NCBI GenBank assembly: GCA_003144275.1
Contig: NJBF01000081.1
Location: 1 to 7,845 of the forward strand
DNA: 7,845 nucleotides
Reading direction: 5' to 3'
From: Candidatus Heimdallarchaeota archaeon B3_Heim
Lineage (GTDB): Archaea; Asgardarchaeota; Heimdallarchaeia; Hodarchaeales; Hodarchaeaceae
Below are positions 1 to 7,571 of this stretch, in pieces (position 1 is the first letter of the stretch; each line of letters begins with the position of its first letter). The position numbers and the translations under genes are program-made. The notes under the pieces were generated by a model. It saw nothing but the letters and a program-made list of their open reading frames with translations, was not told where the DNA came from and did not search any database.

Positions 1-932
1 CTATAATAGGTCTCAATCGTGAAACGCTGCCGATAAAGCTCATTTATCCGTCTTCCTGAGAGAACACAGGTGGGAGGTACAATTAAAGCCATGATACGAT
101 CACCTGCTCGACAAAGAGCGAGCTTAACGGGAAGCCGTTTCCGAGTATGACCTTTATTCATTCGATAGTCTACAACCAAATGTGTTCCTTTTTGACGTAA
201 CTCTTCTTGGTGTTTTTGCACCAAAGGTTTAACACCTGCATTAACACGTCCTCGAATGATAAAAAAAACTTGCTTATGAATAAGCCACTGGATTAAATCC
301 CAATTATAAAATCCACCATCCGCAAGTACTCCAACAATTCGTTCTTGAGTGAGTAGAGGTGTCAAAAGGCTCTGAACCGTCTTGAAAGTCGAATGCTTTA
401 TAGGGAGAAGTTGGACTGCTAACGTGATTGGTTCGGGTGCATTTAACCAAATGACTGTGATATATTTATAAGACTGGTGGGTACTGGCTTTCTTCCTACC
501 TTTACAGATATAAGCGGATAAAGTTTTTGCATAATTAGGATCAGTATGGAAGTCGATCGCTAGCAACATTCCTTGCTTCCGAGCAAACTGAAAGTTCTCA
601 GGCAGACTCTCTAAGAATTGGTAGAAACCAGTTTGTTGCGAGGTTGTTATGTCTTCAACTGATTTGGTTTTTAACCATGCTAAAGTAGCTTCACCTGAGG
701 GGATTGGGAGGTTTTGCTCTCGTAGATCTCGAGCTTTGCGAGAAATTGAGGTTCGATCTATAGCGGTAAGTAAAAGTAATTTCAATCGATTTTTCATTTT
801 GAAAGGTGAGCTACTTGGGATCGGGTTTAATAAGATTTGAAATTTATCTAACCAGCGTACTACAAAGTTTATAAGGGTCGGTGTATTTCGTGCTTTCCGT
901 GGTGGAAAGCGAGGTAGTTTTATTTTGTCCAT
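1..932 (-). CDS. ISH3/IS4-family DDE transposase, 3'-truncated by the window edge (310 codons visible)
   Basis: Manually translated, stop-free from ATG 932 to position 3: MDKIKLPRFPP...GMLLAIDFHTDPNY...KGRKKASTHQSYKYITV...GVLADGGFYNWDLIQWL...FFIIRGR...NELYRQRFTIETYY. Catalytic D (AIDFH), D (LADGGF) and E within the IS4-type Y-x2-R-x3-E motif (YRQRFTIE). Absent from the ORF track, probably because no stop codon falls inside the window. Confidence 0.92.
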   Translation of the reverse strand, partial: MDKIKLPRFPPRKARNTPTLINFVVRWLDKFQILLNPIPSSSPFKMKNRLKLLLLTAIDRTSISRKARDLREQNLPIPSGEATLAWLKTKSVEDITTSQQTGFYQFLESLPENFQFARKQGMLLAIDFHTDPNYAKTLSAYICKGRKKASTHQSYKYITVIWLNAPEPITLAVQLLPIKHSTFKTVQSLLTPLLTQERIVGVLADGGFYNWDLIQWLIHKQVFFIIRGRVNAGVKPLVQKHQEELRQKGTHLVVDYRMNKGHTRKRLPVKLALCRAGDRIMALIVPPTCVLSGRRINELYRQRFTIETYY

Positions 933-1021
933 AATGGCTACTAATTGCTTTTCTCCACATTTAAGTCTTTCCCCTTCGAGATTTCATGAAGATCACCCTC
1001 TCCCATAGTTACGAAGTACTG
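1..1021 (-). mobile_element. Insertion sequence, ISH3 family (IS4-like DDE), left part; continues beyond position 1
   Basis: Contains the DDE transposase ORF. On the minus strand the sequence from 1021 reads CAGTACTTCGTAAC, which fits the C-GT terminal consensus I recall for ISH3-family IRs and lies 89 nt upstream of the ATG. The partner IR and target duplication are outside the window, so the end is inferred. Confidence 0.75.
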
Positions 1022-1267
1022 GTTGGTTATTGCACATCTATAATTTTTTTCCAAATTATTTTTGAAAAAAAGATTTAGTGCAGATGAGGCGTACGCCTTT
1101 TAATGTCTGTTATATAATAAAAAATTAAATTTGTTCACTTCTTTTATGATTAAATCGAATTCAAAAGATAACTACTTATTCCTTAAAAAAAAATTTAGGT
1201 TCCCCATCTTGAAACAAAAAATTATTGCTTTCACCTTCAATGAAATGCTAAGGAATATTGTAACACG

Positions 1268-1355: not shown

Positions 1356-2468
1356 TTGCGTGGAATAATAGTGATTAAGAAAAACCAATTGCTTCTTTCT
1401 GAGGAAGAAAAACAGATTTTAGACGCAATTCTATCATTAGAAATGTACCCCTCTGCAATTAAGGAGGAAGAAGATGAAAGAACCAAACAAGGGGATAAAT
1501 TAGTCCCTACTCAAGATTATATTTGTAAACGGGGAAGATTGATTCAGAAATTATCTCCTAGTGAACAAACATGGATTAAAGACTGGAAAATTCCATTTAA
1601 GCTTCTGTGTACTAAAGATTTGATTCAAAAAGATAACATTAAAGACACCAACCTCATATATACACTAACACACTTAGGTAGGTCACAAGCTAAACAGGTG
1701 AGGCGAGAACGAATTGGCAAACAATTCAGTGATACTCTTGTTCGAAGTGATCAGAGTAAAGCCAATTCTTCATTTTGTTACCAGGTATTTGGAAAGGATC
1801 TGAGCCAGGCGAATATGATGGACATGATACAATTGGATAAACTACTCGAAGTGCTCAACCTTACTTCTGGAAACAGGGTACTGGACTTAGCGTGTGGTGT
1901 TGGTAGGATAACAGAATACATTTCTGATATTACTCAAGCTCATGTTCTTGGCATTGACATCGCTACGATTGCTATTAAACGTGCCCAAGAACGAGCTCAA
2001 AAAAAAAAGAATCGCTTGGAGTTTCAAATAGGAGATATTAATAATCTGCCTTTAGATATAATAGATGTTGATACAGTTATAGGAATTGCGGCTGTTCATT
2101 ATATAGAGGATTTAAATAAGGTAATTGATCAAATAAAAGGAATTTTACCTCCAAATGGTCAAATGGGTTTTTTTACTTTCCAATATTGCACTGCTACTGA
2201 TTCTCCTGAAATTTTGCTTCCAGAAAATACCACTCTTGGACAAATCTTGAAGAATAATGGGTTAAGGTTTCAAACTTGGGATTTTACTGATAAAGAGATA
2301 GAGATACGGCACAAACAACTTCGAATTGCGAGAGACTTGATGAAGGATTTTCAAAAAGAGGGGAATAAGGATTTATGTGAAGACCTAATTGAGGAATGTG
2401 AGGTAGATTTACCACATTTGGAAACTGGTAAAAAACGCCGCTATCTTTATCATGTACAATTAAAGTAG
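1356..2468 (+). CDS. Class I SAM-dependent methyltransferase with ~110-aa N-terminal extension (wHTH-like)
   Basis: SAM-binding motif I VLDLACGVG, acidic end of strand 2 (VLGIDIA), IGDINNLP, and D-x-V...AAVHY and ILPPNGQM motifs. The N-terminal LLCTKDLIQ...YTLTHLG resembles a wHTH wing. Start uncertain (TTG 1356, GTG 1371, first in-frame ATG 1443). Substrate unknown; no DNA-MTase DPPY/NPPY or PC motif seen. Confidence 0.9.
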   Translation: MRGIIVIKKNQLLLSEEEKQILDAILSLEMYPSAIKEEEDERTKQGDKLVPTQDYICKRGRLIQKLSPSEQTWIKDWKIPFKLLCTKDLIQKDNIKDTNLIYTLTHLGRSQAKQVRRERIGKQFSDTLVRSDQSKANSSFCYQVFGKDLSQANMMDMIQLDKLLEVLNLTSGNRVLDLACGVGRITEYISDITQAHVLGIDIATIAIKRAQERAQKKKNRLEFQIGDINNLPLDIIDVDTVIGIAAVHYIEDLNKVIDQIKGILPPNGQMGFFTFQYCTATDSPEILLPENTTLGQILKNNGLRFQTWDFTDKEIEIRHKQLRIARDLMKDFQKEGNKDLCEDLIEECEVDLPHLETGKKRRYLYHVQLK

Positions 2469-2680: not shown

Positions 2681-5671
2681 TTATGTTTCACACTTGTAAG
2701 GGTCCTCAATGGCTATCAATGGTTCCCAAGGATCGTCAAAAGTACTAAAGCCAAACAGTCCTATCCACCCCTCATTTTGTGGGAACAACCAGTAATTCCT
2801 CGCTGAAGGTACACCAAGAGAATACTGTTCACGGTTACAAAATCCCTTATGAAGGTGGCCAGACACTACAATGTCACTTATTCTTACTTTTTTACCATTC
2901 ACAGGTTTTGAAAAATTCGTTCGCCAGTTGTAAACTTTCTTTGCAGTGATTTCTTGTTTACCCAGATATTGTTCCATCTTAGAATTATGACCATGAATAA
3001 AAATAAGATCTTGATAAGGTTTCAGAGACCAGCGGATTTCTGTCATGGTATTAATTGGTTTTCGCCAACGAAAATATCGCATGTCGTAATCATGGTTCCC
3101 TAAAATAAAAATCGTCTTATGGAGTAGGTTTAACTGGTCCAATGTCTCGTAAAGGATAGATAGTTGAGCTCTTGCGATAGTAAAATCATGAGCGGCTAAT
3201 CGATCAATGGTGTCTCCGAGAAAGATGATTACTGAGGCATTTTTCAGAGGTTTTACTAGAGTATAACAAAACTGTCGAAAATTAACCTCCTGGCCATTGA
3301 TTGTGATTAGCTGGCCATTGAAATGCAGATCGGCAATGCATCCCACCGTGAAATGATAATCATCTAGATATCGGTGAAAACGGTTTTTCTTTTCTTGATA
3401 AAGAGTTTGTGTCTGAACATTCTTTTGCTCTTTCTTGTTCTTTATCTTATTCCGAGTCTTTTTTAGCAGTATCCATTGTTGATAAAACATGGACGCCAGA
3501 CCAAGGTTGCTGGTATCAATTAGTAGCGATCCTAACCCCAGTTCTTCATGATAACAGGTGGTTGATCGAAACACTGACCGATCAATGTTGAGTATATCAC
3601 AGTATTTTCGGATTTTCCTTTCCACTGGAATTGTAATCTTCTTTTTCTTTATAAAAATCCCTGTATAATCGGTATTCTGAGCTAGCGGGACATTGTTCAA
3701 GTCAAATGATCCTGTTCGTATATCTTTTTTGACTACTCGCTCTGTTTCAATGACTTCAACAAGGGCTGCATTAATTTTCAGGTCATGTGCTAAGATTTCG
3801 GTGGCAGTTATCGTCTTTTTAACCTTGTTTTTCATAGTGTATAATTCAAGAAAGCCCTTTGTCACATAGACGGTTTTCGCAGTGGGATTGATTTCAACGA
3901 CCTGATAGGTATCATCTATGTAGGTTAATGTTTGACTTGGGAGTCCTCTGCGAAACAGTTCCAAGAGACGGATTGTGCCTAGCTTCCTCTCTTTCGAAGT
4001 CTTTGTGCGTAAGATAACAGTGTAAATTTCTGTACCAAACCGTCTGGGAAACGCATGAATCCACCTCTTTGTTGTTGCAGTAGGACAAATCTGCTCATCA
4101 GAACCCACTGTGACCACATGTTCATCTAGTAATTTGATATATGCCTGTTCGACTTCCTGTAGATAACTCGAATCATCCCTTCCATAAAATCCCTTCTTCA
4201 ACTGATCTACAATATTCCAAAAGCCGAATACCACTCCCATTACTATAGCATACTGCAATGTTAACGGAGTAAAAAGGGGCGTTTGGAATGGAGGAGGTTC
4301 TTCTTGGAAAATAAAGTGAGCTAGAGCATCAACATTAGCTGCTTTATTATTTTCAAAGGTATTCGATGCACGTAAGATAATATCAATTTTCCCCTCCTGT
4401 GACGGATCACGGTTGGAGCGTCCTCGTTGTTGAAGATATTCACGATCACAATGGGGAATGCCATAAAAAATCACCCAAAACGCATCAGGGATATCTAACC
4501 CTGTCTGAATGATGCTTGTAGCGACCAGGCAGATTTGAAGACGGTTATGGCGAAAGTTCCGAATTCTTTTCGCCACTGTCTTAGAGAGCATGTCCCCATG
4601 TACGGTGGTAAAATAGGCAGAAAAGGTGCCTATGAGCTTTTTGATATCGATGTCGCGCTTGTTATTCAAAAACAATATGATCTTCCGTGGCACATACTTG
4701 TTTCCTGGTTTAACTTTCGCACGTTCCGCTTGAATATAGGTTTTAACTTCCTGAACAAAATATTCTAGGAGCTCTTGAGGTTCATCTTCACAATAGACAT
4801 TGATATTAGTGGTACCTCTTCGACCCAGACCCGTTTGATCTAGATAGTCACTTTCTGGCCCAAAAAACAGGGTAGCAAACAGATCAGGATTACTCACGGT
4901 CGCTGAAGATAGAATCACTTTAATCCCTGGATTTTTCCTGATTAAAAAACGAACGAAGATGGATAGACAGAGTAGCACAGAAAGCGGATACGAATCAACC
5001 TCATCGATCAAAATAATGGAGGGGGAAGAGAGTTTTTCCGCCCAGCGATAATTAAAAGACGAAAACACCTTCCCCCACATATCACGGTCGCCCAGCTGAT
5101 CTAAGACTTCTTGATATTCGAGCTGTCCCATAAGAGAAAAACTGGTAAATGACCCTAACAGCATAAAGGGTGTCATAATAAACACCGCTGCACGATCCTG
5201 GCCCTCACGCACCTGATCTCGAATCAGCGCGTTTTCTTCTTCAGTATCCTTATAATATGCGACAATTTGACGGGTATCGCTAAGTCGTCTCATGAAAGTA
5301 GCGAATTTATCCTTGAGTTCTTCCGCTAATCCGCGATTATGTGCTAGGACAAAAGCATAAGAATCCTCCTTTAACGTTTCATGAAGAGTATAGACACACA
5401 TCGCCTCACTTTTACCGCGAGCCGTTTTCCCACGAAGAATGTAAAACTGATGACCAGTTTTACTAAGCATTTCATGCTCAATCAAGGGACGACGCTTTTT
5501 AAAATAATCCAGTTCAACATCGGAAATGTAACACTCCAAAAAGTCTACATACGGCGTACGGGAATAATCCTCCTCAGGAGGTTCAGTACTCGCCAAGGTA
5601 CCTCCCAAAATAGACACAGGAGGAGAAAGAATAGTGTGTTTTCCTCGAAGTCGAGTAGATTTACTAGTCAA
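2681..5671 (-). CDS. SF2 helicase (YprA/Hrq1/Lhr-like) fused to a C-terminal calcineurin-like metallophosphoesterase
   Basis: Helicase motifs: I GKTARGKS (5408-5431), Ia AHNRGLA, Ib TPFML, II DEVD (4994-5005), III SSATVSNP, IV LFLNNKR, V ATSIIQTGLDIP, VI QQRGRSNR (4409-4432), followed by a YprA-like LPSQTLTYIDDTYQVVEIN segment. MPP motifs from aa ~774: ADLH, GDTID, GNHD (3089-3100), HGH, GHLH (2849-2860). The TTG start at 5671 is uncertain. Confidence 0.9.
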   Translation of the reverse strand: MTSKSTRLRGKHTILSPPVSILGGTLASTEPPEEDYSRTPYVDFLECYISDVELDYFKKRRPLIEHEMLSKTGHQFYILRGKTARGKSEAMCVYTLHETLKEDSYAFVLAHNRGLAEELKDKFATFMRRLSDTRQIVAYYKDTEEENALIRDQVREGQDRAAVFIMTPFMLLGSFTSFSLMGQLEYQEVLDQLGDRDMWGKVFSSFNYRWAEKLSSPSIILIDEVDSYPLSVLLCLSIFVRFLIRKNPGIKVILSSATVSNPDLFATLFFGPESDYLDQTGLGRRGTTNINVYCEDEPQELLEYFVQEVKTYIQAERAKVKPGNKYVPRKIILFLNNKRDIDIKKLIGTFSAYFTTVHGDMLSKTVAKRIRNFRHNRLQICLVATSIIQTGLDIPDAFWVIFYGIPHCDREYLQQRGRSNRDPSQEGKIDIILRASNTFENNKAANVDALAHFIFQEEPPPFQTPLFTPLTLQYAIVMGVVFGFWNIVDQLKKGFYGRDDSSYLQEVEQAYIKLLDEHVVTVGSDEQICPTATTKRWIHAFPRRFGTEIYTVILRTKTSKERKLGTIRLLELFRRGLPSQTLTYIDDTYQVVEINPTAKTVYVTKGFLELYTMKNKVKKTITATEILAHDLKINAALVEVIETERVVKKDIRTGSFDLNNVPLAQNTDYTGIFIKKKKITIPVERKIRKYCDILNIDRSVFRSTTCYHEELGLGSLLIDTSNLGLASMFYQQWILLKKTRNKIKNKKEQKNVQTQTLYQEKKNRFHRYLDDYHFTVGCIADLHFNGQLITINGQEVNFRQFCYTLVKPLKNASVIIFLGDTIDRLAAHDFTIARAQLSILYETLDQLNLLHKTIFILGNHDYDMRYFRWRKPINTMTEIRWSLKPYQDLIFIHGHNSKMEQYLGKQEITAKKVYNWRTNFSKPVNGKKVRISDIVVSGHLHKGFCNREQYSLGVPSARNYWLFPQNEGWIGLFGFSTFDDPWEPLIAIEDPYKCET

Positions 5672-5749
5672 TATCTTTCACTAGAGATTGTTTATTTACC
5701 TTTTATATTCAGAATCGCATACATTTTTCAATGATATTAGGTAATAAGT
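5672..5749. promoter_or_regulatory. Divergent promoter region with a TATA-like box (ttttatat, 5701-5708)
   Basis: 78-bp AT-rich gap between the divergent helicase and MazG-like genes. The box reads ATATAAAA on minus about 30 nt before the helicase TTG (leaderless geometry) and TTTTATAT on plus about 42 nt before the MazG ATG. Confidence 0.4.
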
Positions 5750-6061
5750 ATGGAATTGACACAATTAGCTGCTGAAATTGATTCTTTCATCAACAACCAT
5801 GGCGGATACTGGGATCCAGCCTGGCTTCTTTCTGCCCTGACTGAGGAACTTGGTGAATTGTCCCGTGCCATACAAATTTTTGCTGGTATAAGGAATAAGG
5901 GGGTATCTACTGATTCTCCTGTGATGATTCAGAATATAAAAGAGGAAAGTGGTGATTTACTATTTGCTTTACTTTGTTTAACAAATAAATTCCATATAGA
6001 TTTGGAAAAAGCGCTGTTAAACACCCTTAAAAAGTACAAGCAACGGGAATCTGGCACATAA
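5750..6061 (+). CDS. MazG-like nucleotide pyrophosphohydrolase (YpjD-type, single domain)
   Basis: Metal-binding helices LTEELGELSRAI and IKEESGDLLFALLCLTNKFHIDLE; N-terminal EIDSFI...GGYW pattern and 103-aa size match YpjD-like all-alpha NTP-PPases. Confidence 0.9.
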   Translation: MELTQLAAEIDSFINNHGGYWDPAWLLSALTEELGELSRAIQIFAGIRNKGVSTDSPVMIQNIKEESGDLLFALLCLTNKFHIDLEKALLNTLKKYKQRESGT

Positions 6062-6137
6062 ATTGCCGCTAGCTGATATTATATATTCCAGTGTTAGGAA
6101 GGATAATTCAAACAGAAAATATAACGGAAATGAATTT

Positions 6138-7571
6138 ATGGCAAGTACAATAAAACTTGTGGCTGGAATTTTAATTGTTCTAATTGGATTTCCCATTTTT
6201 CTTGGTGGATCTGCAGTTCTCCTTGTTACACCCATATTCGCGGATGATCAAGGATATTTTGTCTCAGAAAGTTATCAAATTACTGATGATAATGTTACTG
6301 CAGTTCGTTTGGATATTCCATTAGACGATGTTCAGCTAGGTATAAGGATTGATCCTTCGGATTTTGTAACTCTCAAAGTTAATGCTTTCGGGGAAACAAA
6401 TGAAGAAATATTCTTGGGATTAACAACGTATGAACAGGCTGAGATTTTTTTAGAAAATGTTTCGTATCTAGAAATTACTAACTTAGACTTCTCAACTGCC
6501 TTTCCATTCGACTCAGAGGAAAATGGTCCTGCAATAAGCATGGTACCAGTTATTAGCAGTAATCCAACAAGAATTCCAAGTTCTACTGATGTCAATTGGC
6601 TATTAGGAGGAGAAGAATTAGGAAATGAATTTGTATGGTCTCCCTCTTACTCTGATCTGACAGGTGGTACTTTAACATTGATAATGATGAATTCAGATAT
6701 GGGTCTAGGAAACAAAGTTAATATTACATTCAGCATTGGAGCACGTATTCCTATTATCAATGCAATTGGATGGGTTTTGACTGTTTTCGGAGGATTATTC
6801 TTATTATTAGGGATAATTATTATCTGGAGCGGTTTACGATCTAAACCACGGAGAGTTGAAAGAACTCGTTACTACCAGGGAGCAATGGCAACGCGTGTAG
6901 AACCAATCGAAAGAACAGCAGCGAATTATCAACTTCAGTGTTCTAATTGCGGTTCAACCAGTGACGCAGATAGTACGTTTTGTTCTCAGTGTGGTGAAAT
7001 TCTTCTTTCAGAAGATAGAAAAGCCATCGATACTGCAGTAAAATCGTCAGAGTTAGGATATTTGGAACCTACTGGAACAAAATTAGTTGTAGCCGATTGG
7101 GGTCCAAGATTTTGGGCATATATTATTGACTTCTTTATCGTTAGTGCAATTACGAGTACATTCACATCTATACTCTTTTTCACTATGAGTGACTGGACTT
7201 GGTGGTCATTTGGAGTATTTAGTCCATTTCAATGGCTCTTTAGTCTGGGACCTTCTTCTGTAGTATTTTTCATCTACATTCTCCTTATGGACCATTATTA
7301 TGGCCAAACTTTAGGTAAGATGGCACTGAATTTGGAAGTGATATCCGAAAGTACTGGGGAGCGTCCTCTCCTGCAGGATCTCGCAATTCACAACCTTGGT
7401 AAAGCCTTCTTTTTACCCATTGACCTAATAGTTGGAAGAATTGTACGTGATCAGAGTCAAGTTCCTGATATGAATCAGAGATTAACTCAAAAATGGAGTC
7501 GTGTTGCGGTCGTTCAGAAATCACGCAAAAGGGAAACTACGACTCAGTTTGTTTCAAACAGGCTTTATTAA
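6138..7571 (+). CDS. Membrane protein: N-terminal TM, ~190-aa extracytoplasmic domain, TM, zinc ribbon, RDD domain
   Basis: Likely start is ATG 6138 (MASTIKLVAGILIVLIGFPIFLGGSAVLL) rather than the TTG at 6063. Second TM IGWVLTVFGGLFLLLGIIIIW; CSNCG...CSQCG (6939-6995); RDD hallmarks ADWGPRFWAYIIDFFIV, GQTLGKMALNLEV and QRLTQKWSRVAVV. Confidence 0.88.
   Translation: MASTIKLVAGILIVLIGFPIFLGGSAVLLVTPIFADDQGYFVSESYQITDDNVTAVRLDIPLDDVQLGIRIDPSDFVTLKVNAFGETNEEIFLGLTTYEQAEIFLENVSYLEITNLDFSTAFPFDSEENGPAISMVPVISSNPTRIPSSTDVNWLLGGEELGNEFVWSPSYSDLTGGTLTLIMMNSDMGLGNKVNITFSIGARIPIINAIGWVLTVFGGLFLLLGIIIIWSGLRSKPRRVERTRYYQGAMATRVEPIERTAANYQLQCSNCGSTSDADSTFCSQCGEILLSEDRKAIDTAVKSSELGYLEPTGTKLVVADWGPRFWAYIIDFFIVSAITSTFTSILFFTMSDWTWWSFGVFSPFQWLFSLGPSSVVFFIYILLMDHYYGQTLGKMALNLEVISESTGERPLLQDLAIHNLGKAFFLPIDLIVGRIVRDQSQVPDMNQRLTQKWSRVAVVQKSRKRETTTQFVSNRLY

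What the first reader, a model, noticed from the sequence alone, without database searches (positions are those of the whole stretch)
2681..5671. Single-chain SF2 helicase-metallophosphoesterase fusion: candidate helicase-nuclease for repair or defence
Seen: a full helicase motif set, a Lys-rich linker (KKTRNKIKNKKEQK), then all five calcineurin-like motifs (DxH, GDxxD, GNHD, HGH, GHxH) in one reading frame. Established: YprA/MrfA partners with the separate YprB/MrfB exonuclease; Lhr genes cluster with a separate MPE Mn-dependent ssDNA endonuclease (Pseudomonas putida); Mre11/SbcD share this fold; YprA-like helicases are core parts of DISARM (DrmB), Druantia (DruE) and Dpd. I do not recall this fusion being characterised. 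Inference: a Rosetta-stone helicase-nuclease or end-processing enzyme, possibly a one-gene antiviral system given the neighbouring IS and cassette.
Basis: partly seen in the sequence, partly recalled or inferred. Interest (0 to 1): 0.78.

Follow-up and report, generated by a model that had tools for sequence, protein, structure and literature searches.

The report
Helicase-nuclease fusion of Asgard ARAMP loci
An intact 996-residue gene of an Asgard archaeon joins a MrfA/YprA-type DNA helicase to a metallophosphoesterase (Mre11-like fold) domain; its relatives sit inside a rare CRISPR-derived gene cluster without repeat arrays (ARAMP), so it is most likely that system's DNA-unwinding and DNA-cutting arm, a new variant of a known theme rather than an ordinary repair gene.

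Summary
Window 2681-5671 (-) is one open 996-aa frame with a complete SF2 helicase motif set, a disordered Lys-rich linker and all five calcineurin-like motifs. These motifs are conserved in about 29 relatives down to 28% identity, and dN/dS against the paralog is 0.155. The model (pLDDT 84) superposes on MrfA over 630 residues (Z 24), so the helicase is YprA/MrfA-like but lacks the 4-Cys zinc cluster.

The family is tiny: 22 hits among 1.84 billion representatives. It was found in one Asgard genus only, and there patchily. Two-gene (helicase | MPE) forms exist, so the functional link is real.

In 8 of 12 informative loci the gene sits beside an array-less CRISPR-derived module: a Cas7 RAMP, an HD protein, PD-(D/E)xK-like and PIN-like proteins, and a roughly 1000-aa protein with a Cas1 fold. 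This matches the computationally described, untested ARAMP systems.

A distinct TnpB clade lies directly upstream in several loci. The window copy is a detached, promoter-bearing duplicate (82% identical to the in-cluster copy) next to an IS.

Best reading: a Cas3-like helicase-nuclease arm of ARAMP. The scan had already noted the paralog and ARAMP loci elsewhere. I could not read the 2020 ARAMP paper.

The parts
2681..5671 (-). Complete helicase-MPE gene (996 aa, TTG start, TAA-type stop included)
   Evidence: Start confirmed by alignment with the ATG of paralog P0007. dN/dS 0.155.
3458..5629 (-). Residues 15-738: MrfA/YprA-type helicase (two RecA domains plus helical and OB/connector/DUF1998-like 'canopy' region; the 4-Cys zinc site is not conserved)
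   Evidence: Foldseek 6znp_A E 9e-30 over 774 columns. VIA-align 6znq_B Z 24.0, rmsd 3.5, 630 residues aligned, model 15-738 against chain 12-710. No Pfam MZB hit. No conserved Cys in 690-735 across members.
5408..5431 (-). Walker A / motif I, G81-S88 (K87)
   Evidence: Sequence. GK[ST] is invariant in the family.
4994..5005 (-). Motif II, DEVD 223-226
   Evidence: DE[VIL]D is invariant in the family.
3404..3463 (-). Lys-rich flexible linker (about residues 737-756)
   Evidence: pLDDT below 50 for 737-754. Length and sequence vary between members. This is the site of the gene split in two-gene forms.
2684..3403 (-). Residues 757-996: calcineurin-like metallophosphoesterase domain with all five metal-binding motifs
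   Evidence: Pfam Metallophos 34.2 bits against cut-off 21.5. D781/H783, D820/D823, N859/H860, H893, H939/H941 are invariant in 14-29 sequences.
5672..5719 (-). Promoter segment duplicated with the gene; TATA-like ATATAAAA at 5701-5708, 30-37 nt before the start codon
   Evidence: Identical block TGCGATTCTGAATATAAAAGGT upstream of both the window and C21 copies. blastn homology to C21 spans window 2694-5719 only.
1..1027 (-). ISH3-family insertion sequence copy (transposase ORF 3..932, cut by the contig end). It is context, not part of the system, and explains the contig break.
   Evidence: NCBIfam transpos_ISH3 1e-22, Pfam DDE_Tnp_1. There are at least 6 copies at 76-100% identity elsewhere in the genome.

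Best explanation
The gene encodes a single-chain helicase-nuclease. The first part is a YprA/MrfA-family SF2 DNA translocase that has lost the family's 4-Cys zinc cluster. A flexible Lys-rich linker joins it to a divergent metallophosphoesterase domain with an intact two-metal site. The family is a component of a genus-restricted, array-less CRISPR-derived cluster of the ARAMP kind. The usual gene order is [TnpB] > helicase-MPE > < giant Cas1-fold protein, then A (PD-(D/E)xK-like) > B (PIN-like) > Cas7 RAMP > HD protein > (E, F). Proposed mechanism (inferred): the RAMP/HD module, or another sensor in the cluster, marks foreign or target DNA. The helicase loads on exposed single-stranded DNA and moves 3'-to-5' as MrfA does. 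The tethered Mn/Mg-dependent MPE domain cuts the displaced or tracked strand. This would make it a functional analogue of Cas3 (SF2 helicase + HD nuclease), built from different parts. The window copy is an intact, selectively maintained duplicate that kept its own promoter but sits apart from the cluster. It probably acts in trans with one of the genome's two clusters, or on its own. Shown here: domain composition, fold, motif conservation, purifying selection, split/fused forms, gene neighbourhood and distribution. Inferred: DNA as substrate, nuclease activity, cooperation with the RAMP module, and a defence role.
For: Domains and motifs. Fold: model pLDDT 83.6, pTM 0.84; MrfA is the top hit and the only one covering residues 15-738. 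The nearest sequence outgroups all carry the MZB domain, and the family is monophyletic against them at 100/100 support. Split forms have 1-4 nt junctions: the P0021 contig, L024 and L017. They are scattered among fused forms on the tree. Neighbourhood: a Cas1-fold giant protein in 8 loci and the A-B-C-D operon in 7. Gene C hits Pfam RAMPs above the cut-off, PADLOC Csm3 at 2.6e-7 and type IV Cas7 at 3e-5. The giant protein's top 45 PDB fold hits are all Cas1 or casposase. Gene D hits Pfam HD in 2 of 4 members at E 0.0018. Atlas leads suggest A is PD-(D/E)xK-like and B is PIN-like. No CRISPR array was found in 6 loci. The literature describes ARAMP as array-less, type III-derived, carrying a distinct Cas1 and assorted nucleases. 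YprA helicases commonly carry C-terminal or adjacent nucleases in defence systems. Distribution: 4 of 20 sister species had the gene, 0 of 280 other genomes sampled in the phylum did, and there are three copies in this genome. Purifying selection acts on both halves.
Against: The window copy has none of the cluster genes on its 7.8-kb contig, so its link to the cluster rests on its paralog and orthologs. In G190 the helicase and the cluster are on different contigs, and in G102:C16 they are 9 kb apart. The MPE domain has no significant sequence match to any solved nuclease; the only PDB profile hit is the cyclic-nucleotide phosphodiesterase Rv0805 at E 0.086. No RNA guide, binding partner or activity has been shown. 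The annotations of A, B and the RAMP part of D are leads only.
Confidence: 0.55

Rival explanations
1. The gene is part of a mobile element rather than a defence system. The Cas1-fold giant protein would act as an integrase or casposase-like transposase. The TnpB elements would be homing partners. The helicase-MPE would process DNA ends or unwind DNA for the element's replication or transposition.
For: The giant protein matches casposase (6opm) as well as it matches Cas1. The literature notes that some Asgard Cas1 variants may belong to new mobile elements. In the TnpB clade at or above 57% identity, 6 of 7 genus loci abut a helicase-MPE gene. Presence within the genus is patchy and genomic positions vary. 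The window copy is flanked by an IS.
Against: No terminal repeats, target duplications or polymerase gene were looked for or seen. The duplicated segment in the window is just the gene plus 48 nt of promoter. TnpB and helicase identities do not co-vary (Spearman -0.24, p 0.5). RAMP, HD, PD-(D/E)xK-like and PIN-like genes are more typical of interference modules.
Confidence: 0.2
2. It is a housekeeping DNA-repair helicase-nuclease, an archaeal counterpart of MrfA-MrfB or Lhr-MPE that removes cross-links or processes stalled forks.
For: MrfA is the closest solved structure.
Against: It was found in only 4 of 20 sister species and in 0 of 280 other genomes sampled in the phylum. There are only 22 related clusters among 1.84 billion representatives. 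It is multi-copy within one genome. It is linked to a CRISPR-derived cluster, to TnpB and to defence-type neighbours such as NERD-UvrD, KAP NTPase and ThsB-TIR. None of this fits a core repair gene.
Confidence: 0.1
3. The MPE domain is not a nuclease. It is a phosphodiesterase or phosphatase acting on nucleotides or a signalling molecule, or it removes 3'/5' phosphates or protein-DNA adducts from ends that the helicase exposes.
For: The only PDB sequence-profile hit is Rv0805, a cyclic-nucleotide phosphodiesterase, at E 0.086. NCBIfam gives a weak YfcE phosphodiesterase hit. The superfamily is chemically versatile (established knowledge).
Against: These hits are not significant. The position of the domain, C-terminal to a YprA helicase or encoded by the next gene, is where that family carries nucleases. 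No cyclase (Cas10 or CD-NTase) was seen in the cluster.
Confidence: 0.1

Closest known systems
MrfA/YprA (DUF1998) helicases, e.g. Bacillus subtilis MrfA with its MrfB exonuclease (PDB 6ZNP/6ZNQ)
   Same: Whole-length fold match over 630 residues, including the region after the RecA domains. The nearest sequence relatives outside the family carry MZB. Both follow the logic of a helicase plus a nuclease partner.
   Different: The nuclease here is a fused metallophosphoesterase, not a separate DnaQ-type exonuclease. The 4-Cys zinc cluster and the Pfam MZB signature are missing. The host is an archaeon and the context is a CRISPR-derived cluster. Sequence identity to MrfA is only about 15%.
Defence YprA helicases with C-terminal nucleases (ARMADA Vsr, Druantia III DruE PLD, TALON RNase H-like; bioRxiv 10.1101/2025.09.15.676423)
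   Same: A YprA-family helicase with a nuclease domain at the C-terminus or in the next gene. Occasional loss of the 4-Cys cluster is reported for Dpd.
   Different: A metallophosphoesterase is not among the nucleases listed, and Asgard archaea and TnpB are not mentioned. The partner genes BrxHII, PglX and DruH are absent here. PADLOC gives only weak helicase-core hits: DpdF 3.6e-5, DrmA 8.5e-5.
ARAMP (Asgard RAMP) array-less CRISPR derivatives (Makarova et al. 2020, CRISPR J 3:156; summarised in PMC8730458 and PMC12669027)
   Same: Asgard host, Cas7-like RAMP, HD-bearing partner, highly divergent Cas1, extra nucleases, no CRISPR array.
   Different: The summaries name HNH and PD-(D/E)xK nucleases, not a helicase-MPE. 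Here the Cas1 fold is the C-terminal third of a protein of about 1000-1440 aa. This version was found in essentially one genus. The primary paper could not be read, so prior mention of this helicase cannot be excluded.
Cas3 of type I CRISPR-Cas
   Same: An SF2 helicase and a metal-dependent nuclease in one chain, encoded next to RAMP effector genes. The best PADLOC hit is Cas3c at 2.6e-10, over the helicase core only.
   Different: The nuclease is a C-terminal MPE, not an N-terminal HD. The helicase belongs to the YprA lineage. There is no CRISPR array and no Cas8 or Cas11 was recognised. It is an analogue, not a member.
Lhr helicase with the adjacent MPE nuclease (Pseudomonas putida; recalled knowledge, not read here) and Mre11/SbcD
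   Same: An SF2 3'-5' helicase functionally coupled to a calcineurin-fold Mn-dependent nuclease. Lhr is the third-best structural hit (Z 23.2, but only 463 residues aligned).
   Different: In Lhr systems the two are separate genes of a bacterial repair operon. The helicase here matches MrfA over far more of its length. There is no sequence similarity of the MPE domain to Mre11, SbcD or any solved nuclease.

Membership tests
YprA/MrfA (DUF1998) helicase family | SF2 helicase core with motifs I, II, III and VI intact | tested here: met
   GK[ST], DE[VIL]D, S[AG]T and QxxxRxxR are invariant in the family. Pfam DEAD and Helicase_C hits.
YprA/MrfA (DUF1998) helicase family | Post-RecA 'canopy' (OB fold, connector, DUF1998 domain) with the MrfA architecture | tested here: met
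   VIA-align 6znq_B Z 24.0, rmsd 3.5, 630 of 711 residues aligned, model 15-738 against chain 12-710. Other helicases align at most about 465 residues. Foldseek E 9e-30.
YprA/MrfA (DUF1998) helicase family | Four-cysteine zinc cluster / Pfam MZB (PF09369) signature | tested here: not met
   No MZB hit at E<=0.01. The two Cys in 690-710 of P0001 are absent from the 30%-identity members. The 2025 survey reports the same loss in Dpd helicases, so this feature is not universal in the family.
YprA/MrfA (DUF1998) helicase family | Closest sequence relatives outside the own clade are MZB-bearing helicases | tested here: met
   9 of 10 next-best full-length hits (22-29% identity) carry PF09369. The tree places the family as sister to them.
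Calcineurin-like metallophosphoesterase superfamily | Five metal-binding motifs DxH, GDxxD, GNH[DE], H, GHxH, and a Pfam Metallophos score above its cut-off | tested here: met
   34.2 bits against 21.5. All motif residues are invariant in 14-29 sequences.
Mre11/SbcD nucleases | Sequence or structure relationship to Mre11/SbcD, including the capping domain and a Rad50/SbcC partner | tested here: inconclusive
   The MPE-domain profile against PDB sequences found only Rv0805 at E 0.086. The domain was not folded and searched alone. No Rad50-like gene was seen in the loci.
ARAMP (Asgard RAMP) system | Cas7-like RAMP gene in the locus | tested here: met
   Met for the family's loci, not for the window. 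Pfam RAMPs 23.0 and 24.9 bits against cut-off 22.1, PADLOC Csm3 2.6e-7, NCBIfam cas7_csf2 1e-3. Present in C21, C38, L021, L022, L018 and L030.
ARAMP (Asgard RAMP) system | Distinct, highly diverged Cas1 | tested here: met
   The top 45 Foldseek PDB hits of the giant protein's model are all Cas1 or casposase (best 4n06_B, E 1e-7, TM by target 0.58). No Pfam or PDB sequence hit.
ARAMP (Asgard RAMP) system | Second RAMP (Cas5-like) fused to an HD nuclease | tested here: inconclusive
   Gene D hits Pfam HD in 2 of 4 members (best E 0.0018) and has an atlas HD lead at 0.76. The RAMP part is not shown (hhalign probability 0.4%).
ARAMP (Asgard RAMP) system | No CRISPR array and no Cas10 | tested here: met
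   No array in six loci. A genome-wide k-mer scan found only a 4-copy candidate on C93, unlinked to the loci. No Cas10 hit in Pfam, PADLOC or NCBIfam scans.
ARAMP (Asgard RAMP) system | The window gene itself lies in such a locus | tested here: not met
   None of the cluster genes is on the 7845-nt contig. Membership is by paralogy (82% identity to the C21 in-cluster copy) only.
Cas3 (type I CRISPR) | HD nuclease domain joined to a Cas3-type helicase, working with Cascade and a CRISPR array | tested here: not met
   No HD domain in the protein. The PADLOC Cas3c hit covers the helicase core only, residues 217-446. No array.
DISARM / Druantia / Dpd / ARMADA | Signature partner genes (DrmB/C/MI, DruH, Dpd genes, BrxHII+PglX) next to the YprA helicase | tested here: not met
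   PADLOC scans of the window's and the cluster's proteins gave no such partners.

The most novel reading that the evidence does not exclude
The helicase-MPE is a convergently built 'Cas3' recruited by an RNA-guided module that has no CRISPR array. That module would be either the Cas7/HD complex, loaded with a still unknown RNA, or the TnpB nuclease encoded 210-320 bp upstream on the same strand in many loci. Two genomes also carry a TnpB in the operon position where the Cas7 and HD genes are expected. This would be the first case of a transposon-type RNA-guided nuclease, or an array-less RAMP complex, working with a processive helicase-nuclease.
Probability: 0.18. Interest if true: 0.88.

Novelty: new variant of a known kind. 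Interest (0 to 1): 0.62.

Why it matters
YprA-family helicases are the motors of several major antiviral systems and are always paired with a nuclease. This finding adds a fifth nuclease fold, the metallophosphoesterase, to that list. It also ties a YprA helicase to a CRISPR-derived module for the first time that I could find.

ARAMP systems have been enigmatic since 2020, because they have a Cas7, a Cas1 and no array. A dedicated helicase-nuclease arm gives a concrete and testable effector hypothesis.

The recurrent TnpB next to the gene raises the possibility of a link between OMEGA-type and CRISPR-derived machinery in the archaea closest to eukaryotes. The protein is compact, single-chain and has clear catalytic residues, so simple biochemistry can decide.

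Tried and rejected
- **Sequencing runs:** The look-up of sequencing runs listed no run for the gene. Read-level checks of the linker and of expression were therefore not possible.
- **Primary papers:** the ARAMP and HRAMP papers (PMC7307682, PMC6702361, DOI 10.1089/crispr.2020.0012) are not held.
- **PDB sequence-profile searches:** searches with the giant protein, A, B, C and D gave nothing significant. The MPE-domain profile gave only Rv0805 at E 0.086.
- **Other blanks:** Rfam found nothing in the window. No CRISPR arrays were found near the loci.
- **'MPE-less paralog' on C8 (P0018), rejected:** the last few hundred bases of C8 are GC-rich and encode an LpxC-like bacterial N-terminus, so the contig end is chimeric. 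The start of C38 carries the missing MPE C-terminus next to the second cluster.
- **TnpB and helicase co-divergence:** no correlation (Spearman -0.24, p 0.5, n = 10 pairs). Vertical co-inheritance is not shown.
- **Window's methyltransferase as a partner:** the PADLOC mad2 hit covers only the generic SAM-MTase domain, and the gene is not conserved beside any relative.
- **Fused architecture elsewhere:** an AFDB fold-cluster search found no other hit that extends past residue ~764 into the MPE domain, apart from the protein itself.
- **Literature searches:** Asgard+Cas1+phosphoesterase found nothing, and TnpB+helicase+YprA found nothing relevant.
- **Not used:** Complex prediction, because no direct-binding claim is made.
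Full report
**1. The observation**

The window is the whole of contig C103 of a 3.95-Mb, 94%-complete metagenome-assembled genome. Coordinates 2681-5671 on the minus strand hold one open frame of 996 codons.

Pfam finds DEAD (residues 77-260), Helicase_C (328-421) and Metallophos (775-942), all above their curated cut-offs. The helicase motifs are:
- Walker A G81-S88, with K87
- DEVD 223-226
- SAT 256-258
- QQRGRSNR 414-421

The five metallophosphoesterase motifs are D781xH783, G819D820xxD823, G858N859H860D861, H893G894 and G938H939xH941. All of these are present and are invariant across every aligned relative, down to 28% identity.

The TTG start aligns with the ATG of an 82%-identical paralog. 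Both genes are preceded by the same block containing a TATA-like box, 30-37 nt before the start. dN/dS between the two copies is 0.155, with dS 0.61, and is the same for the helicase and MPE halves. The feature is real, intact and under selection.

**2. What the protein is**

An AlphaFold model built on 29 relatives is confident (pLDDT 83.6, pTM 0.84). The only internal disordered stretch is the Lys-rich linker, residues 737-754.

The best solved match is B. subtilis MrfA:
- Foldseek E 9e-30 over 774 columns
- VIA-align Z 24.0, rmsd 3.5 A, 630 of 711 residues aligned, model 15-738

Hel308, Brr2, Pol-theta and Lhr match only the 420-465 residues of the core. The nearest sequence relatives outside the family (22-29% identity) almost all carry the MrfA zinc-binding domain. 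A tree places the family as a 100%-supported sister group to them.

The protein gives no MZB hit and has no conserved cysteines there. The 2025 YprA survey reports the same loss for Dpd helicases. That survey lists Vsr/PD-(D/E)xK, PLD, RNase H-like and EEP domains and the separate MrfB exonuclease as the family's nucleases. It does not list a metallophosphoesterase.

The MPE domain is very divergent. A profile of 14 domains hits nothing significant among PDB sequences (Rv0805, E 0.086). An AFDB fold-cluster search finds no other entry whose match extends beyond residue ~764, that is into the MPE domain.

**3. How rare it is**

- Among 1.84 billion representative proteins, only 22 score below 1e-30.
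- Among 5.8 billion clusters, 12 full-length relatives were found. Submitters named them only 'metallophosphoesterase' or 'MPP superfamily phosphohydrolase', from Hodarchaeales or Thorarchaeota MAGs.
- In a sample of 301 genomes of the phylum, the gene was found only in the window's own genus: 4 of 20 other species and 0 of 280 genomes outside the genus.

**4. Fused and split forms**

Three relatives encode the helicase and the MPE as adjacent genes with 1-4 nt junctions: the P0021 contig, L024 and G102:C16. On the tree these split forms are scattered among fused ones, and fused forms occur in both major clades. The link between the two activities is therefore conserved regardless of covalent fusion.

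**5. The neighbourhood**

An all-against-all comparison of ORFs from 16 loci showed a conserved cluster.

The helicase-MPE gene lies tail-to-tail with a gene for a 970-1440-aa protein. The distance is 10-200 bp in L015, L018, C38 and L011, 2.5-3 kb in four other loci, and 9 kb in one. Downstream of that gene, on the other strand, is an operon A-B-C-D, sometimes followed by E and F.

- **Gene C** is a Cas7-type RAMP: Pfam RAMPs above the cut-off in two members, PADLOC Csm3 2.6e-7 and type IV Cas7 3e-5.
- **The giant protein** has no sequence-level annotation. Its model (pLDDT 75) gives Cas1 or casposase as all of its top 45 PDB fold hits.
- **Gene D** hits Pfam HD weakly in 2 of 4 members.
- **Genes A and B** look PD-(D/E)xK-like and PIN-like by language-model neighbours and by eye. 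These are leads only.

No CRISPR array is present in six loci. A crude scan of the whole genome found only an unlinked four-repeat candidate.

This matches the published description of ARAMP. These are array-less, type III-derived systems of Asgard archaea, with diverged Cas7 and Cas5, extra nucleases and 'a distinct form of Cas1' (PMC8730458 and PMC12669027). Earlier follow-ups of this scan reached the same label for Cas7/Cas5-HD/Cas1 islands in other Asgard genomes. I could not open the primary 2020 paper. I therefore cannot say whether the helicase-MPE was already drawn there; the two summaries mention only HNH and PD-(D/E)xK nucleases.

**6. The window copy in context**

The genome has three copies.
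- The C21 copy (P0007) lies in a full cluster.
- A second cluster starts contig C38, directly after the last 75 codons of an MPE domain. Its helicase is most likely P0018, at the end of contig C8. The apparent non-MPE tail of P0018 is an artefact, because the end of C8 is GC-rich bacterial-looking DNA encoding an LpxC-like N-terminus.
- The window copy is sister to the C21 copy.

Nucleotide similarity between the window and C21 covers only window 2694-5719, that is the gene plus 48 nt of promoter. Its neighbours are not conserved beside any relative:
- a multi-copy ISH3 element
- a SAM methyltransferase
- a MazG-like protein
- an RDD/zinc-ribbon membrane protein

The window holds a detached but maintained duplicate of a cluster component.

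**7. TnpB**

A 410-aa TnpB with an intact RuvC D-E-D triad lies on the same strand, 210-320 bp upstream of the helicase gene, in L006, L013, L016/L034, L017/L046, L018/L047 and L043.

Sequence conservation downstream of tnpB stops about 70-80 nt after its stop codon, as expected for an IS right end. Within the genus, 6 of the 7 TnpB loci that are at least 57% identical to this clade abut a helicase-MPE gene. The seventh also lies tail-to-tail with an MPE gene, although one locus (L033) shows no helicase.

More distant TnpBs sit after genes A-B, where Cas7 and D are expected (L027/L056 and L037), or next to gene E (L035). The genome itself has only about ten tnpB copies.

TnpB and helicase identities do not co-vary. 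Repeated site-specific insertion into these islands is therefore as likely as a functional partnership.

**8. Mechanism and rivals**

The best-supported reading (0.55) is a Cas3-like helicase-nuclease arm of the ARAMP-type cluster. In this reading a MrfA-like 3'-5' ssDNA translocase carries a tethered two-metal nuclease that degrades DNA marked by the RAMP/HD module.

The rivals are:
- a role in a Cas1/TnpB-linked mobile element (0.2)
- housekeeping repair like MrfAB or Lhr-MPE (0.1), which fits poorly with the patchy, multi-copy, island-linked distribution
- a non-nuclease phosphodiesterase role for the MPE domain (0.1)

None of the activities has been measured.

**9. Verdict**

I rate the finding as a new variant of known kinds: a YprA helicase-nuclease, and the ARAMP systems. 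Interest is moderate to high because it gives ARAMP a testable effector and adds a new nuclease fold to the YprA repertoire. The caveat is that the primary ARAMP paper could not be checked.

Noticed in passing
L006:6304-7539, L013:6552-7790, L016:6506-7738, L017:6666-7910, L018:8557-9795, L043:3-713: A distinct TnpB clade (57-66% identical to each other, at most 51% to other TnpBs of the genus) lies on the same strand 210-320 bp upstream of helicase-MPE genes that are only 26-42% identical to each other. RuvC residues are intact. An IS right-end-like conserved block ends about 130 nt before the helicase start.
   Followed up: partly
L027:1745-4354 (G262:C189) and L037:100-2700 (G181:C244): In two genomes the operon reads A, B, then a TnpB gene where the Cas7 and HD genes are expected. 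No Cas7 or D match was found in the 2 kb that follow in L027. This is either an IS insertion with loss of the genes or a module swap.
   Followed up: partly
L006:about 10250-10594 (end of G000:C8) and L028:1-360 (start of G000:C38): The end of C8 switches to GC-rich DNA encoding an LpxC-like bacterial N-terminus, so the contig end is chimeric. The start of C38 carries the C-terminus of an MPE domain next to the second ARAMP-type cluster. The two contigs are probably neighbours.
   Followed up: partly
window 1-1027: ISH3-family insertion sequence with at least six copies (76-100% identity) at contig ends elsewhere in the genome. It probably caused the contig break.
   Followed up: partly
window 1356-2468: SAM-dependent methyltransferase with a 150-residue N-terminal extension of unknown function. 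The PADLOC 'mad2' hit (5e-20) covers only the generic methyltransferase domain.
   Followed up: no
window 5750-6061 and 6063-7571: A small MazG-like nucleotide pyrophosphohydrolase gene is followed after one base by a 502-aa membrane protein with a zinc ribbon and an RDD domain. The pair is divergent from the helicase gene and only 78 nt from it.
   Followed up: no
L005:8676-10076 and L005:13456-14862 (G000:C21); L013:2616-4037: Two paralogous proteins of about 467 aa and unknown function flank the C21 helicase-MPE gene. A homolog and an S8 peptidase are syntenic in L013. Related repeats occur on contig C88.
   Followed up: no
L013:11617-18964 and the P0014 contig (no DNA held): Defence-island-like neighbours: a NERD-UvrD_C protein, a KAP NTPase, an integrase-AAA_5 fusion, two ThsB-type TIR proteins and an LRR protein.
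   Followed up: no
L029:4382-7696 (G102:C16): A 1104-aa ORF whose N-terminus matches gene A (PD-(D/E)xK-like) stands where the A-B-C-D operon is expected. The rest shows no similarity to B, C or D.
   Followed up: no
G000:C93:6949-7156: The only CRISPR-like candidate in the assembly: four copies of a 20-mer at about 69-nt spacing, unlinked to the three helicase loci.
   Followed up: no
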